The translations under genes and the position numbers were made by a program. A stretch of 4,978 bases of DNA from IMG/VR virus record IMGVR_UViG_2671180417_000017, positions 1 through 4,978 of that record; one strand, written 5' to 3'. The notes beneath the pieces are model-generated. The model was given only the letters and a program-made list of their open reading frames with translations. It was not told the DNA's origin and did not search any database. The DNA is from a virus (lineage: Duplodnaviria > Heunggongvirae > Uroviricota > Caudoviricetes). Positions 2,634 through 4,941 of the stretch are shown one piece after another (position 1 is the first letter of the stretch; each line of letters begins with the position of its first letter).

Positions 2634-2738
2634 ATGTCGGATGATATATCACTGGCAATGGAAGGTGCGCTGGCTGTTATTGCTGTTGTGGGCGTTTACT
2701 GCCTGGTTGTGTTTTTGATGGATCGACTAGGGAACTGA
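2634..2738 (+). CDS. small hydrophobic peptide, 34 aa (MSDDISLAMEGALAVIAVVGVYCLVVFLMDRLGN), predicted single TM helix
   Basis: ATG 2634 preceded by strong SD AAGGAGGG (2622-2629). TGA 2736-2738. Acidic N-terminus followed by about 20 hydrophobic residues. Confidence 0.55.
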   Translation: MSDDISLAMEGALAVIAVVGVYCLVVFLMDRLGN

Positions 2739-2746
2739 ATTCATTA

Positions 2747-2768
2747 CGATATGGGAATTCCCATATCG
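2747..2768. repeat. perfect 22-bp palindrome CGATATGGGAATTCCCATATCG
   Basis: Read directly: left half CGATATGGGAA is the exact reverse complement of right half TTCCCATATCG. Lies between the small-peptide stop (2738) and the putative hok promoter -35 (2781). Confidence 0.9.
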
Positions 2769-2780
2769 GGTAAAAACGGT

Positions 2781-2808
2781 TTGCGGTAAAGCGAGAGTTA
2801 AGTAGAAT
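2781..2808 (+). promoter_or_regulatory. putative sigma70 promoter of hok/mok mRNA (-35 TTGCGG, 16-bp spacer, -10 TAGAAT)
   Basis: TTGCGG 2781-2786 and TAGAAT 2803-2808. The predicted start near 2813-2816 coincides with the beginning of the 5' element GCGGGTGCTTGAGGC, which resembles the 5' end of plasmid R1 hok mRNA. Confidence 0.45.
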
Positions 2809-2859
2809 TGCTGCGGGTGCTTGAGGCTGTCTGCCTCGGGCATGCCACCGTAAGGCAGA

Positions 2860-2936
2860 CAGAGAAAAGCCCCAGTTAACATTACGCGTCCTGCAAGACG
2901 CCTAACATTAATCTGAGGCCAATTTCATGCTAGACA
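2860..2936 (-). ncRNA. sok: putative Sok-like antisense RNA of the hok locus (boundaries approximate)
   Basis: On the - strand, -35 TTGCCT (plus 2965-2970) and -10 TAACCT (plus 2942-2947) with a 17-bp spacer would start an antisense transcript near 2935 covering the mok SD/start (2915-2929). An imperfect hairpin (about 2881-2906) follows but has no clean U-tract, so the 3' end is uncertain. Confidence 0.3.
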
Positions 2937-3139
2937 CATGTAGGTTAGCCTCTTACGCGCCGAAAGGCAAGGAGAAGCAGGCTATGAAGCAGCAAAAGGC
3001 GATGTTAGTCGCCCTGATCGTCATCTGTATTACCGTCATTGTGACGGCACTGGTAACGAGGAAAGACCTCTGCGAGGTACGAATCCGAACCGGCCAGACG
3101 GAGGTCACTGTCTTCACAGCTTACGAACCTGAGGAGTAA
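2927..3139 (+). CDS. mok: Mok-like N-terminally extended reading frame (70 aa) in frame with hok
   Basis: ATG 2927 with GAGG (2915-2918) 8 nt upstream. N-terminus MLDTCRLAS... resembles chromosomal MokC (MLNTCR...) from memory. Same frame and stop as hok. Confidence 0.5.
   Translation: MLDTCRLASYAPKGKEKQAMKQQKAMLVALIVICITVIVTALVTRKDLCEVRIRTGQTEVTVFTAYEPEE
2984..3139 (+). CDS. hok: Hok/Gef-family type I toxin (51 aa), HokD/RelF-like
   Basis: ATG 2984 with AAGGAG (2969-2974) 9 nt upstream. Protein MKQQKAMLVALIVICITVIVTALVTRKDLCEVRIRTGQTEVTVFTAYEPEE is near-identical to my recollection of E. coli HokD/HokC: TM helix followed by the conserved RKDLCEV...TEV..F.AYE periplasmic tail. TAA 3137-3139. 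Confidence 0.9.
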   Translation: MKQQKAMLVALIVICITVIVTALVTRKDLCEVRIRTGQTEVTVFTAYEPEE

Positions 3140-3207
3140 GAGACCAGGCGAGGGAGAAATCCCTCGCCACCTCTGATGTGTCAGGCATCCTCAACGCACC
3201 CGCACTT

Positions 3208-3229
3208 AACCCGCTTCGGCGGGTTTTTT
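3208..3229 (+). terminator. rho-independent terminator of hok mRNA (stem CCCGC, loop TTCG, stem GCGGG, then T6)
   Basis: AACCCGCTTCGGCGGGTTTTTT read directly: GC-rich stem, tetraloop, U-tract. Confidence 0.8.
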
Positions 3230-3348
3230 CACGTACTGTGGTTGTGAATACGATCGGTATTAGGCTATGCTAACAACATTAGCCTGACTAATTTTGTATT
3301 GACTTGATTTTTGTTAAAGAACAGGACGGAGAAGTAAGGGTACACCCA

Positions 3349-3528
3349 ATGAGCTACGCACTAAAAAAACACCCGCGATTGACTATTCCCCCTCGCGATA
3401 AAAGCGTTGTGGCAGCTCCGCGCCCGGCTATCGATGAAAATTGCACTCATCGTGAGCAGGTGAAAAATGCTTTCGATTTCGGTTTTTCTCGTTACGAGAA
3501 GGCAATGGAAGAACTTTCAAAAGTGTAA
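3349..3528 (+). CDS. putative antitoxin partner of the Doc-family toxin (59 aa; not Phd/YefM-like)
   Basis: ATG 3349 with AAGGG (3335-3339) upstream; the ORF track begins the frame at TTG 3304. Stop TAA 3526-3528 lies 18 nt before the Doc ATG, the usual antitoxin-then-toxin arrangement. Sequence MSYALKKHPRLTIPPRDKSVVAAPRPAIDENCTHREQVKNAFDFGFSRYEKAMEELSKV matches no antitoxin family I recognise. Confidence 0.6.
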   Translation: MSYALKKHPRLTIPPRDKSVVAAPRPAIDENCTHREQVKNAFDFGFSRYEKAMEELSKV

Positions 3529-3546
3529 TGATGGGTATTGTGCTCT

Positions 3547-4032
3547 ATGGCTGAGATTGTTGAAGGAGTGCACTACCTTTCGTTTGATGATCTTACCGAA
3601 ATTAATCGCCTTTTAATTGAGCTTCAAACACCAGATGAACCTGTTAGTGTGCTGAGTGTTGATAATTTAAGTTCTTCTCAGTCTCGTCCCAGCATGGTTC
3701 GATGGTATGAACAGACTAATGACATGTTTGTACTGGCATCAGTATTGATTGAAAGTCTGATTCAGAATCATCCATTTGCTAATGCAAACAAACGAACAGC
3801 TATGATGGCTGGTTATGTCTTCTTGTTGTTGAATGGCTATGAGTTAACAGCACCAGGCGATGAAATCGTGGAAATGGCAGAGGGACTGGCCTGCAAAACC
3901 TATACTCGAGAAGATCTCGAGAACTGGTTGTGTTATTGGTCTCGTGCGTATGACGGCCGGGAATTATGTAAAACAGGCGCAACTGTTGTTTTGTATGAAA
4001 CTATCAAGCTTAAAATAGAACAGCAAAACTAA
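3547..4032 (+). CDS. doc: Doc/Fic-family toxin (death-on-curing-like, predicted kinase/AMPylase fold), about 161 aa
   Basis: Motif HPFANANKRTA fits the Doc signature H-x-F-x-(D/N)-(A/G)-N-K-R, and the flanking helices (ASVLIESLIQN before, MMAGYVFLLLNGYEL after) parallel P1 Doc. Start is ATG 3547 or in-frame TTG 3538. Stop TAA 4030-4032. Confidence 0.85.
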   Translation: MAEIVEGVHYLSFDDLTEINRLLIELQTPDEPVSVLSVDNLSSSQSRPSMVRWYEQTNDMFVLASVLIESLIQNHPFANANKRTAMMAGYVFLLLNGYELTAPGDEIVEMAEGLACKTYTREDLENWLCYWSRAYDGRELCKTGATVVLYETIKLKIEQQN

Positions 4033-4048
4033 AGGTGCTTCTAATGAA

Positions 4049-4068
4049 AACCCGCTTCGGCGGGTTTT
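4049..4068. terminator. bidirectional rho-independent terminator (A-tract, CCCGC TTCG GCGGG, T-tract)
   Basis: GAAAACCCGCTTCGGCGGGTTTTGTTGT: the same 20-mer AACCCGCTTCGGCGGGTTTT as at 3208-3227. Sits between the convergent doc (+) and HTH antitoxin (-) genes, with A-run upstream and T-run downstream. Confidence 0.7.
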
Positions 4069-4082
4069 GTTGTATTGGAGTA

Positions 4083-4400
4083 TCATGATATTACCTGGAT
4101 TCCGTTTTTCTCTACGACTGAAAGAAGGCGAAGAGCGGCACCTCCCGGCCGTTTTACACCACGTTCCCAGTCTGATATCAGGTTTTTACTGACGTTGAGG
4201 TATCTGGCAAAAACAGGTTGAGACAGATGCTCTCGTTCGCGCAGTGCACGGATCCTTTCCGGAGACATTACCGGCGCTGGCTGGAGACAAGTTTCATCGA
4301 ATTCTCGCATAGTCTGTTTCGTTACTGCGCCGATATCATGAAGCGATTCCATCATTTCATGTACGGATGCAAGCGCATCACTGCGGTAATTTTTACTCAT
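4083..4400 (-). CDS. HTH-XRE family antitoxin (HigA-like), 105 aa
   Basis: ATG (plus 4398-4400) with GGAGGT SD (plus 4406-4411 reverse complement) 5 nt upstream; stop TGA (plus 4083-4085). C-terminal HTH LSQPVFARYLNVSKNLISDWERGVKRPGGAALRLL is typical of XRE-type antitoxins. Lies immediately downstream of a RelE-like toxin frame on the same strand. Confidence 0.85.
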   Translation of the reverse strand: MSKNYRSDALASVHEMMESLHDIGAVTKQTMREFDETCLQPAPVMSPERIRALREREHLSQPVFARYLNVSKNLISDWERGVKRPGGAALRLLSVVEKNGIQVIS

Positions 4401-4454
4401 TGGGTACCTCCGTAAACTGACCCTGTAGAATCAGTTGTGCCAGTTGTTCATCTG

Positions 4455-4762
4455 TTAGATTGAGTACGTGAGGAGCCCCTTCCGAAATGCACTTTCCTCA
4501 GTAGCGGTTATATTTTCACGTTCATTTTTTGCGTATGCATATACGAAAAAGGCCCTTGTGCCGACGCGATAGAAAATGATTGTGCGATAACCGCCAGATT
4601 TGCCGCCACCGACTCGTGGCAGACGTTGCTTGATAACGCCGTTACCCAGGTTTGCTGAGATAAGCCCGTTATCAGCCTGTTTAACAATTTCGCGCAGTGA
4701 TTGGTCGGATATTTTGTTTTGCGTGCAAGTCGCTCAAACCAGGCGTTTTTAAAAATGCGCAT
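4455..4762 (-). pseudogene. RelE/ParE-superfamily toxin (DUF1044-like, GGGKSGGYRT motif) disrupted by a 1-nt frameshift in an A4 run
   Basis: Frame A from ATG (plus 4760-4762) encodes MRIFKNAWFERLARK... and ends at TAA plus 4508-4510. The -1 frame from about plus 4721 encodes KISDQSLREIVKQADNGLISANLGNGVIKQRLPRVGGGKSGGYRTIIFYRVGTRAFFVYAYAKNERENITATEESAFRKGLLTYSI, ending at TAA plus 4455-4457. Both pieces look like one conserved toxin; the junction is the TTTT run at plus 4717-4720. Adding one A restores an ORF of about 101 aa. Confidence 0.65.
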
Positions 4763-4784
4763 TTTTTGTTCCGTTATTAATGTA

Positions 4785-4799
4785 TAACACATAGTGTTA
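4785..4799. promoter_or_regulatory. perfect inverted repeat TAACAC-ATA-GTGTTA, candidate operator in the divergent promoter region of the RelE-like/HTH module
   Basis: Read directly; lies 23-37 nt upstream of the toxin ATG on the - strand and overlaps the likely promoter. XRE antitoxin dimers typically bind such dyads. Confidence 0.45.
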
Positions 4800-4829
4800 C
4801 ATTGCGTAGGGATCTGCAATGCCATCAGT

Positions 4830-4859
4830 TTGACAACGTCGCGTGTTCGGGGCTATATT
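4830..4859 (+). promoter_or_regulatory. putative sigma70 promoter (-35 TTGACA, 18-bp spacer, -10 TATATT) reading rightward
   Basis: Consensus -35 TTGACA 4830-4835 and TATATT 4854-4859. Divergent from the - strand TA module. Confidence 0.4.
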
Positions 4860-4920
4860 CCTCACGCGCCAGCAAAACCTGGCGTCGGGATTAGCACCCC
4901 GGATATCGAAACGGTGCATA

Positions 4921-4941
4921 ACCGCGCTGGCGGTTTTTTTA
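4921..4941 (+). terminator. putative rho-independent terminator (ACCGC GCTG GCGGT, then T7)
   Basis: Short GC-rich hairpin followed by TTTTTTT 4934-4940, about 75 nt downstream of the putative promoter. Confidence 0.5.

What the first reader, a model, noticed from the sequence alone, without database searches (positions are those of the whole stretch)
2781..4762. Three toxin-antitoxin modules of three different types packed into about 2 kb of a prophage accessory region
A type I hok/mok/sok locus (2781-3229), a Doc/Fic-family toxin with a small upstream partner (3349-4032) and a RelE-like toxin with an HTH-XRE antitoxin on the opposite strand (4083-4762) sit back to back, separated only by terminators. 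TA modules in prophages are now often tied to abortive-infection / anti-phage defence and prophage stabilisation, so this looks like a compact defence or addiction islet in a moron position downstream of the replication genes. The combination and the unrecognised Doc partner may be undescribed.
Basis: partly seen in the sequence, partly recalled or inferred. Interest (0 to 1): 0.7.

Follow-up and report, generated by a model that had tools for sequence, protein, structure and literature searches.

The report
Prophage toxin-antitoxin islet, one module decayed
This 2-kb stretch of an E. coli lambdoid prophage holds an intact hok/sok module, an intact Doc toxin with an uncharacterised 59-aa partner that is probably its antitoxin, and a HigB2/HigA2-type module whose toxin gene is broken by two frameshifts; it is a largely ordinary, already annotated accessory hotspot.

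Summary
All three loci are at the stated coordinates, but only two are intact.

1. **hok/mok/sok (2815-3229)** is a complete hokW/sokW-type type I module.
2. **Doc (3547-4032)** is a clear death-on-curing family member with the motif HPFANANKR. The 59-aa ORF upstream (3349-3528) is a real gene under purifying selection. It has no Pfam, NCBIfam, PADLOC or PDB match and falls in phrog_2208, "unknown function".
   - Doc lay directly downstream of it in all 89 loci scanned, in many unrelated flanking contexts.
   - It is predicted to have an unstructured N-terminus and a C-terminal helix. That helix aligns without gaps to the Doc-neutralising helix of Phd. It is therefore probably a minimal Phd-like antitoxin without the usual DNA-binding domain. 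This is inference.
3. **The RelE-like gene (4393-4762, minus strand)** is a pseudogene with two 1-nt deletions relative to intact 123-aa homologues. Different deletions occur in different lineages. The HigA2-like HTH antitoxin (4083-4400) is intact.

The block is mosaic. The full block occurs in 34 of 5426 complete E. coli genomes, including O104:H4, and the Doc cassette in 125. No known defence system was detected, so an anti-phage role remains untested. Overall this is a new member of a known kind, of modest interest.

The parts
2815..3229 (+). Full-length hok-type mRNA, from the 5' leader to the terminator
   Evidence: Rfam RF01794 covers model positions 1-157 at 116.9 bits over 2815-2989. 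The MFE is -177.5 kcal/mol with z = -9.1, and the 5' end pairs with 3189-3201. The region is 88-96% identical to phage hokW-type loci.
2927..3139 (+). mok reading frame (70 aa) overlapping hok
   Evidence: ORF list. It aligns with the annotated mokW of phage 933W.
2984..3139 (+). hok toxin gene (51 aa)
   Evidence: Pfam HOK_GEF 2.9e-22; phrog_251 6.1e-31; annotated as hokD in identical genomes.
2865..2935 (-). Sok-type antisense RNA, placed by homology
   Evidence: Gap-free alignment to the annotated sokW misc_RNA of phage 933W, L007 1595-1665. A candidate promoter, TTGCCT (2969-2964) - 17 nt - TAACCT (2946-2941), was read from the sequence.
3208..3229 (+). hok terminator hairpin plus T-run
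   Evidence: Inverted repeat AACCCGC/GCGGGTT at 3208-3225, followed by TTTT.
3349..3528 (+). 59-aa Doc partner, a candidate minimal antitoxin (phrog_2208)
   Evidence: No Pfam, NCBIfam, PADLOC or PDB hit; phrog_2208 2.7e-42. Doc is immediately downstream in 89 of 89 loci. For the C-terminal 24 codons, pN is 0.017-0.034 against pS of at least 0.73. AlphaFold2 predicts a helix at residues 34-57 with pLDDT 84-94.
3547..4032 (+). Doc (death-on-curing, Fic fold) toxin gene, 161 aa; motif HPFANANKR encoded at 3769-3795
   Evidence: TIGR01550 at 122.1 bits against 38.65; Pfam Fic 3e-11; PDB 9vzc E. faecalis Doc 1.1e-12 and P1 Doc 1.2e-4; phrog_577 1e-50.
4047..4068 (.). Bidirectional terminator hairpin between the convergent Doc and higA genes
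   Evidence: AAAACCCGC/GCGGGTTTT, 9-bp arms.
4083..4400 (-). HigA2-like HTH antitoxin gene, intact (105 aa)
   Evidence: HTH_3 1e-07; V. cholerae HigA-2 5jaa 7.9e-08; phrog_2104 3e-43. pN is 0.004 against pS 0.31 versus the O157 allele. The same protein, WP_000042397.1, is annotated in four strains.
4393..4762 (-). HigB2/RelE (PF06296)-type toxin pseudogene, with 1-nt deletions at 4717-4720 and 4476-4479
   Evidence: Three-frame translation; alignment to intact genes L005 and L006 3514-3885. The repaired protein matches PF06296 at 153.7 bits. The intact homologue matches HigB-2 5ja9 at 2.8e-3.
4784..4800 (.). Imperfect palindrome ATAACAC-ATA-GTGTTAC upstream of the toxin ATG; candidate HigA operator
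   Evidence: Read from the sequence. Inference only.

Best explanation
The region is a mosaic accessory ('moron') slot of an E. coli lambdoid prophage. It lies between the replication genes (DnaC-like, DUF1627, DUF977, DUF551) and the isrK/antirepressor/nin genes, and it has collected self-contained toxin-antitoxin cassettes.

(1) hok/mok/sok is an intact type I module. Stable hok mRNA is kept closed by 5'-3' pairing. Sok antisense RNA blocks mok translation, and with it hok translation. When Sok decays, Hok inserts into the inner membrane.

(2) The 59-aa gene plus Doc is an intact, mobile two-gene type II module. Doc is predicted to phosphorylate EF-Tu, as P1 Doc does. The 59-aa protein is predicted to neutralise it with its conserved C-terminal helix, in the manner of Phd residues 52-73. 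It lacks a Phd/YefM, MazE or RHH DNA-binding domain. These steps are inferred, not shown.

(3) The HigB2/HigA2-type module is decayed. The ribosome-dependent RNase toxin gene carries two frameshifts. The HTH antitoxin is retained under purifying selection, probably as an orphan repressor or anti-addiction factor.
For: Genomic context: the window is 99.5-100% identical to prophages of O104:H4 and AST198, which have lambdoid gene order.

Module 1. The 91%-identical hokW-sokW locus is an experimentally shown TA (PMC8621323).

Module 2:
- TIGR01550 at 122 bits and an intact HxFx(D/N)(A/G)NKR motif.
- Partner and Doc are adjacent in 89 of 89 loci from Serratia, Kluyvera, Citrobacter, Hafnia, Rosenbergiella, Yersinia, Xenorhabdus, Orbaceae and 80 IMG/VR contigs. 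They are also adjacent in Ewingella, Salmonella and two Pseudomonas phages.
- The flanks fall into 36 upstream and 24 downstream sequence clusters.
- There is strong purifying selection on the partner's C-terminal helix, and AlphaFold2 predicts a helix at 34-57.
- The family-conserved positions F42, F46, Y49, M53 and L56, with the chain ending 3 residues after L56, sit in the register of published Phd hot spots F56, M/F60, H63, L67 and L70, where the chain also ends 3 residues later (PMC9207808; Phd sequence verified).
- A PSSM of the partner's C-terminus scores Phd 52-73 at +1.1 bits against a background of -19.3 +/- 7.8. Only 2 of 948 unrelated C-termini reach that score.
- E. faecalis Doc, the closest solved relative, is also neutralised by a C-terminal bent helix ending KELVT, attached to a different N-terminal domain (PMC13034048).

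Module 3. Deletions #1, #2 and #3 occur in different combinations across lineages, while the antitoxin protein stays unchanged.
Against: - No experiment or complex model links the 59-aa protein to Doc neutralisation.
- Sequence similarity to Phd is undetectable by HMM, and my register test was post hoc.
- i, i+4, i+7, i+11, i+14 spacing is generic for amphipathic helices.
- No convincing sigma-70 promoter was found for the Doc cassette in this window.
- The AlphaFold2 model of Doc was poor (pLDDT 51).
- A del#2-only toxin (102 aa in L035 and L036) could retain activity in some lineages.
Confidence: 0.72

Rival explanations
1. The block is an anti-phage (abortive-infection) defence islet. Infection by another phage shuts off host transcription or degrades the antitoxins, which frees Hok and Doc. 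These kill or arrest the cell before the invader completes its cycle.
For: Prophage hotspots are known reservoirs of defence systems, and TA modules can act as Abi systems (PMC9122126, PMC9519451). The cassettes have moron-like autonomy: their own terminators, many different flanks, and one insertion inside a tail gene row in Ewingella.
Against: PADLOC models give no system-level hit. They return only generic HTH matches and a weak PDC-S23 match at E = 2e-3. A literature search for Doc together with anti-phage found nothing. One of the three toxins is dead. No phage-challenge data exist.
Confidence: 0.2
2. The modules serve the prophage's own life cycle or persistence rather than the host. hok/sok helps lysis and virion release after induction, as hokW-sokW does for Sp5. 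Doc and its partner act as addiction modules that penalise loss of the prophage.
For: hokW-sokW halves Sp5 release when deleted, and MMC (mitomycin C) depletes sokW in a RecA-dependent way (PMC8621323). The window's hok locus is about 91% identical to hokW. hok sits directly upstream of the Doc cassette in 46 of 80 viral loci. Doc was discovered as the P1 plasmid-prophage addiction toxin (established knowledge).
Against: An integrated prophage is not lost by segregation, so addiction is less obviously useful. There are no data for this hok allele or for this Doc. Decay of the third toxin shows that selection to keep such toxins can be weak.
Confidence: 0.3
3. The 59-aa protein is not an antitoxin. 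It could be a regulator, a co-factor or adaptor of Doc, or a second effector. This ~160-aa Doc subfamily may not be toxic to its host on its own.
For: No homology to any antitoxin family. No DNA-binding domain is predicted. The Doc subfamily has a conserved extra C-terminal segment, W127-C141, that is absent from P1 Doc. Some predicted toxins prove non-toxic when tested (PMC4366850).
Against: The upstream-small-gene/downstream-toxin order, with a 3-18 nt gap, is strictly conserved in 89 of 89 loci. The conserved part of the partner is exactly a C-terminal helix in the Phd register. The Doc catalytic motif is intact.
Confidence: 0.12
4. The two frameshifts in the RelE-like gene are sequencing artefacts or programmed frameshift sites, so the third module is in fact functional.
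For: Deletion #1 lies in a homopolymer run, A5 to A4 in the gene's (minus-strand) sense. Deletion #2 lies within a run of G.
Against: The same deletions appear in many independently sequenced complete genomes and IMG/VR contigs. They occur in all combinations: #1 only, #2 only, both, and #2 plus #3. The rest of the 5-kb window has no broken ORFs. Intact alleles exist elsewhere. Restoring the frame would need two separate +1 events.
Confidence: 0.03

Closest known systems
hokW-sokW of Stx phages 933W and Sp5 (type I hok/sok family; the E. coli copies are named hokD by NCBI's PGAP annotation)
   Same: About 91% nucleotide identity over the whole locus. It has the same mok/hok overlap, Sok target region, 5'-3' fold-back and prophage location.
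   Different: It sits in a different place in the phage genome, after the replication genes rather than near the end of the late region as in 933W. There are a few amino-acid differences in Hok. The 3' flank and terminator differ from 933W.
Phd-Doc of phage P1 and Salmonella, and E. faecalis Phd-Doc (PDB 3K33, 9VZC)
   Same: The toxin is in TIGR01550 with the HxFx(D/N)(A/G)NKR motif, and a small upstream gene precedes it. The partner's conserved C-terminal helix ends ...EELSKV, comparable to KELVNR in P1 and KELVT in E. faecalis. Hydrophobic positions fall in the same register as the Phd hot spots.
   Different: The partner is only 59 aa. It has no Phd/YefM or MazE-like DNA-binding domain and no detectable sequence homology to Phd. 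Its N-terminus carries a distinct conserved L-x-I-P-x-R-D-K motif. This Doc is about 35 aa longer than P1 Doc, with a conserved W127-C141 segment.
HigB2-HigA2 of Vibrio cholerae (RelE-superfamily toxin, Pfam PF06296, with an HTH antitoxin)
   Same: The toxin gene comes first and overlaps the antitoxin start by 8 nt in intact homologues. The antitoxin has a C-terminal HTH domain and an N-terminal extension. Both partners give PDB sequence hits.
   Different: Here the toxin is a pseudogene with two frameshifts. Sequence similarity to the Vibrio proteins is low (E = 3e-3 and 8e-8). The location is a prophage rather than a superintegron.
relBE-hokD (relBEF) of the E. coli K-12 Qin prophage and other prophage TA clusters
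   Same: A type II RelE-superfamily module sits next to a hok-family gene inside a lambdoid prophage (established knowledge of K-12; not re-tested here).
   Different: The type II families are different, there is an extra Doc cassette, and the arrangement is convergent rather than operonic.

Membership tests
hok/sok type I TA | Hok/Gef peptide | tested here: met
   Pfam HOK_GEF 78.4 bits against a cut-off of 22; phrog_251.
hok/sok type I TA | Overlapping mok frame that ends at the hok stop codon | tested here: met
   ORF 2927-3139 contains hok 2984-3139. It aligns with the annotated mokW.
hok/sok type I TA | Structured mRNA leader / Sok target and long-range 5'-3' (tac-fbi) pairing | tested here: met
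   RF01794 at 116.9 bits against 59. The MFE fold pairs the 5' end with 3189-3201, z = -9.1.
hok/sok type I TA | Expressed antisense Sok RNA that neutralises Hok | not testable with these tools
   Only positional homology to the annotated sokW. Function has been shown for hokW-sokW (PMC8621323).
Doc (death-on-curing) toxins, Fic fold | Family HMM above its curated cut-off | tested here: met
   TIGR01550 122.1 bits against 38.65; Pfam Fic 44.4 bits against 24.
Doc (death-on-curing) toxins, Fic fold | Catalytic motif HxFx(D/N)(A/G)NKR | tested here: met
   HPFANANKR at residues 75-83. H75, F77, N79, N81, K82 and R83 are invariant in 30 homologues.
Doc (death-on-curing) toxins, Fic fold | Toxicity through EF-Tu phosphorylation, reversed by the upstream gene product | not testable with these tools
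A complex prediction could not be run.
Phd/YefM antitoxins (as a home for the 59-aa partner) | Match to the family HMM or to solved Phd sequences | tested here: not met
   No Pfam hit at E <= 1. No NCBIfam hit. The profile search against PDB finds no Phd at E <= 10.
Phd/YefM antitoxins (as a home for the 59-aa partner) | Folded N-terminal DNA-binding domain | tested here: not met
   AlphaFold2 gives no regular structure in residues 1-33, with pLDDT 58-72. Only about 33 residues are available.
Phd/YefM antitoxins (as a home for the 59-aa partner) | C-terminal Doc-binding helix with hydrophobic hot spots | tested here: inconclusive
   A helix at 34-57 is predicted. The conserved F42/F46/Y49/M53/L56 positions fall in the Phd register. 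The PSSM test gives roughly 0.002-0.006, but it was post hoc.
HigB2/HigA2 (PF06296 RelE toxin + HTH antitoxin) | Intact toxin ORF | tested here: not met
   Two 1-nt deletions; the longest ORF fragment matches only 34 residues of PF06296.
HigB2/HigA2 (PF06296 RelE toxin + HTH antitoxin) | Toxin sequence belongs to PF06296 / HigB-2 | tested here: met
HigB-2 5ja9 matches at 2.8e-3.
HigB2/HigA2 (PF06296 RelE toxin + HTH antitoxin) | HTH antitoxin downstream of the toxin, with overlapping stop and start | tested here: met
   HigA-2 matches at 7.9e-08. An 8-nt overlap is seen in intact loci L005 and L006 and in the repaired window frame.
Known anti-phage defence systems (PADLOC-DB v2) | HMM match of the components to a defined system | tested here: not met
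   No hit for Hok, the partner or HigB. Doc gives only a weak PDC-S23 match at 2e-3. HigA gives only generic HTH models.

The most novel reading that the evidence does not exclude
The 59-aa protein (phrog_2208) founds an undescribed class of minimal Doc antitoxins. It would consist of a disordered N-terminus with an L-x-I-P-x-R-D-K motif plus a Phd-like neutralising helix, with no DNA-binding domain and hence no conditional-cooperativity autoregulation. The partner-Doc pair would be a free-standing phage moron that moves between lambdoid, P2-like and other prophages of Enterobacterales and Pseudomonas. It would act as an abortive-infection or superinfection-exclusion device, with the N-terminal motif serving as the trigger or degron sensor.
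Probability: 0.15. Interest if true: 0.55.

Novelty: new member of a known kind. Interest (0 to 1): 0.3.

Why it matters
The locus is present in the 2011 outbreak lineage E. coli O104:H4 and in other pathogenic E. coli. It illustrates three points.

- The slot between the replication and nin genes of lambdoid prophages is a recurrent landing site for TA cassettes of different types. A Salmonella relative carries four in a row.
- Such islets turn over. The toxin gene was hit repeatedly by 1-nt deletions while its antitoxin stayed intact.
- Automatic annotation still misses the cognate partner of a widespread Doc subfamily. The partner's strict linkage to Doc and its Phd-like helix make it a cheap experimental target. 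It would test whether Doc can be controlled by an antitoxin that has no DNA-binding domain.

None of this changes current concepts.

Tried and rejected
- **Complex prediction.** I tried to model partner + Doc as the natural in-frame read-through 3349-4032.
- **Doc structure.** The AlphaFold2 model of Doc alone came out at pLDDT 51. It is too poor for fold search, so no fold search was run.
- **Partner against PDB.** A profile search gave only chance-level hits, to ribosomal S25 and a RES-domain protein.
- **Related-locus search.** The diverse partner alignment A6 had no block conserved enough to search with. The closer alignment A3 worked.
- **Promoter scan.** No consensus promoter was found for hok, the Doc cassette or higBA; the only one found was the isrK promoter. 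A conserved GGTATTA(A/G) motif plus an inverted repeat about 90 nt upstream of the partner ATG was seen across contexts, but I could not assign a -35 element in this window.
- **ShpB lead.** A published TA table lists 'shpB' next to 'doc', which suggested ShpB might be the Doc partner. ShpAB turned out to be a RelE-like module and the adjacency an artefact of the list layout, so I dropped it.
- **Literature searches.** Doc with anti-phage found nothing. O104 with TA, Doc and hok found nothing specific.
- **Sequencing-error reading of the frameshifts.** Rejected because the same and different deletions recur in many independent assemblies.


Full report
**Origin and layout**

The window is the early-right region of an E. 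coli lambdoid prophage. Positions 2740-4830 are 99.5-100% identical to chromosomal prophages of E. coli AST198, O104:H4 (2011C-3493, C227-11, HUSEC2011 and others) and ML35.

In those genomes the order is cII, replication genes, DnaC-like ATPase, DUF1627, DUF977, DUF551 and a 34-aa ORF. The block under study follows, then an ORF6N/antirepressor gene, ninB, ninE, rusA, ninH and Q. Pfam confirms the left-hand genes in the window.

**Module 1, hok/mok/sok (2815-3229): confirmed and intact**

- The 70-aa mok frame (2927-3139) contains the 51-aa hok gene (2984-3139). Pfam HOK_GEF gives 2.9e-22 and phrog_251 'MokW-like' gives 6e-31.
- Rfam RF01794 matches 2815-2989 end to end at 116.9 bits, against a gathering score of 59.
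- The region aligns without gaps to hokW/mokW/sokW of phage 933W. That places the Sok-type antisense RNA at 2865-2935 on the minus strand.
- The 415-nt transcript folds at -177.5 kcal/mol (z = -9.1). Its 5' end pairs with 3189-3201, which is the fold-back typical of hok mRNAs.
- A hairpin at 3208-3225 plus a T-run ends the unit.
- hokW-sokW has been shown to be a working type I TA that promotes Sp5 release after mitomycin C (PMC8621323).

**Module 2, the 59-aa ORF plus Doc (3349-4032): confirmed, and the most informative part**

Doc (161 aa) scores 122 bits on NCBIfam TIGR01550 against a cut-off of 38.65. It carries HPFANANKR, the Doc form of the Fic motif. It matches E. faecalis Doc (PDB 9VZC, 1.1e-12) and P1 Doc (3K33, 1.2e-4). 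About 230 close clusters across Enterobacterales are all labelled death-on-curing toxins.

The upstream 59-aa ORF has no hit in Pfam, NCBIfam, PADLOC or the PDB. It belongs to phrog_2208, 'unknown function'. The family is small:
- 17 clusters by word search.
- 39 representatives at E <= 1e-3 among 1.84 billion proteins.

It is a real gene. Against the Salmonella and Ewingella orthologues, synonymous sites are saturated (pS 0.75-0.82) while pN is 0.11-0.18. Within the last 24 codons pN is only 0.017-0.034.

Its linkage to Doc is strict. Doc followed directly in all 89 loci scanned, which comprised 9 loci from 8 genera in the genome collection plus 80 IMG/VR contigs. The script's start-codon rule gave gaps of 3-10 nt, and the apparent exception L081 was a start-codon artefact. 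The same pair occurs in several other settings:
- An Ewingella prophage, inside a tail/baseplate gene row.
- A Salmonella lambdoid prophage.
- Pseudomonas phages Sirocco and LPPA56.

The flanks of the cassette fall into 36 different upstream and 24 different downstream sequence clusters, so the two genes move as a unit.

**What the partner probably is**

Across 35 diverged members the conserved features are an N-terminal L-x-I-P-x-R-D-K motif and a C-terminal block: A41, F42, F46, Y49, M53, L56, S, K, V59 and the chain end. AlphaFold2 predicts no regular structure for residues 1-33 and a confident helix for 34-57, with pLDDT 84-94.

The last 22 residues align without gaps to P1 Phd 52-73 (Phd sequence verified). 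F42 aligns with F56, F46 with F60, E55 with E69 and L56 with L70. Both chains end three residues later.

Published alanine scanning of Salmonella Phd names F56, I59, M60, H63, L67 and L70 as the hot spots, with F56 and L70 as 'gatekeepers' (PMC9207808). Five of these six positions correspond to conserved hydrophobic or aromatic positions of the partner.

A PSSM built from the partner family scores Phd 52-73 at +1.1 bits, against -19.3 +/- 7.8 for 948 unrelated ORF C-termini. Two of those 948 reach the Phd score, as do 611 of 100,000 shuffles. The C-terminal window is also the best of all 52 windows along Phd. This test was made after I noticed the resemblance, and the spacing is generic for amphipathic helices. 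I therefore treat it as suggestive only.

The recent E. faecalis structure shows that a Doc can be neutralised by a C-terminal bent helix ending KELVT that is attached to a quite different N-terminal DNA-binding domain (PMC13034048). The modular idea is therefore established.

My reading is that the partner is a minimal antitoxin. It would keep the Doc-binding helix but have no recognisable DNA-binding domain. It fails the membership tests for Phd/YefM, so it should not be filed there.

**Module 3 (4083-4762, minus strand): only half alive**

The 105-aa HTH protein is intact and resembles V. cholerae HigA-2 (7.9e-08). The supposed RelE-like toxin is not an ORF. The sequence reads MRIFKNAWFERLARKTK in one frame, ISDQSL...EESAFRK in a second and APHVLNLTDEQL...VPNE in a third.

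Alignment with intact 372-nt genes from strain 2013C-3033 and an O157 prophage shows two 1-nt deletions:
- #1: A5 to A4 in the gene's sense, at window 4717-4720.
- #2: one base lost at GG(C)GG, at window 4476-4479.

The intact and the repaired proteins match Pfam RelE PF06296 at 157 and 153.7 bits and HigB-2 at 2.8e-3. In intact loci the toxin gene comes first and overlaps the antitoxin start by 8 nt, which is the hig arrangement.

The state of the gene differs between lineages:

| Toxin state | Where seen |
|---|---|
| #1 and #2 | window, AST198, O104:H4, three IMG/VR contigs |
| #1 only | ML35, phage PhiR12_3, three contigs |
| #2 only | two contigs |
| #2 plus a third deletion | 23CRST047 |
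| Intact, O157-type allele next to hok and Doc | contig L032 |

Only 8 of 5426 genomes carry the A5 form of this allele. Meanwhile the antitoxin protein is unchanged (WP_000042397.1) and under strong purifying selection, with pN 0.004 against pS 0.31. This is the pattern of toxin decay with antitoxin retention, not of sequencing error.

**Is the block a unit?**

It is not.
- The full block (at least 80% coverage) is in 34 of 5426 complete E. coli genomes.
- The Doc cassette is in 125, always on the chromosome.
- This higBA allele is in 38, and a 78%-identical allele is in a further 179.
- hok-like sequence is in 4722.

At the same prophage position, related phages carry different cargo:
- hok+Doc (O157:H7 F6294, E1316, TUM1881).
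- hok+higBA (O157 FDAARGOS_293).
- higBA alone (2013C-3033).
- hok, Doc, ParDE and VapBC within about 2.5 kb in Salmonella.

hok lies directly upstream of the Doc cassette in 46 of 80 viral loci.

**Function**

Nothing here shows defence. PADLOC has no system-level match, and I found no paper linking Doc to anti-phage activity. Prophage hotspots rich in defence and TA genes are a known phenomenon (PMC9122126, PMC9519451).

The most defensible statement is that these are autonomous, mobile TA cassettes accumulated in a recombination-prone moron slot. Whether they act as addiction modules, lysis helpers (as hokW-sokW does) or abortive-infection devices must be tested.

**Verdict**

NCBI's PGAP pipeline already annotates four of the five genes in public genomes. 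The new content is threefold:
- The pseudogene status and repeated decay of the third toxin.
- The strict, mobile pairing of a Doc subfamily with an uncharacterised 59-aa protein that looks like a stripped-down Phd.
- The recurrent use of this prophage slot by TA cassettes.

I rate it a new member of a known kind, with modest interest.

Noticed in passing
window 4830-4940: An isrK-type sRNA (RF01394, 74.3 bits against 50) lies at 4866-4940. It overlaps a c4-a1b1 match (RF03163, 47.4 bits against 46.7) at 4853-4905. A near-consensus promoter, TTGACA-18-TATATT, precedes it at 4830-4859. In related genomes an ORF6N/antirepressor gene follows, as in the Gifsy-1 isrK locus.
   Followed up: partly
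window 2634-2738: A 34-aa hydrophobic ORF (MSDDISLAMEGALAVIAVVGVYCLVVFLMDRLGN) is annotated as a hypothetical protein (WP_001278450.1) in all related prophages inspected. It has no family hit. It may be a small membrane protein just upstream of hok.
   Followed up: partly
L010 4496-7009 (Salmonella enterica prophage): Four TA modules sit side by side at the equivalent prophage position: Hok (opposite strand), partner/Doc, ParDE and VapBC, all within about 2.5 kb.
   Followed up: partly
L008 / L009 5001-5670 (Ewingella prophage): The partner/Doc cassette is inserted inside a myovirus-type tail/baseplate gene row, between tail-module genes upstream (including a Dit-like gene) and spike-apex, sheath-initiator and baseplate genes downstream. 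About 400 nt of non-coding DNA lies upstream of it.
   Followed up: no
window 3256-3287 and the equivalent positions in L019-L098: A conserved GGTATTA(A/G) motif followed by a short inverted repeat lies about 85-95 nt upstream of the partner ATG in most of 21 unrelated contexts. It may be the cassette's own promoter/operator. In the window the TG of an extended -10 element is missing.
   Followed up: partly
window 4784-4800: An imperfect palindrome, ATAACAC-ATA-GTGTTAC, lies 22 nt upstream of the higB start codon. It is a candidate HigA operator that the orphan antitoxin might still regulate.
   Followed up: no
window 3148-3229: A sub-threshold second isrK match (31.2 bits against 50) covers the two hairpins at the 3' end of the hok mRNA. 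It probably only reflects the shared hairpin-plus-terminator shape.
   Followed up: no
L016 6826-7723 (E. coli E1316 prophage): A serine/threonine kinase gene and a PP2C phosphatase gene sit directly after Q in a prophage that carries hok+Doc but no higBA.
   Followed up: no
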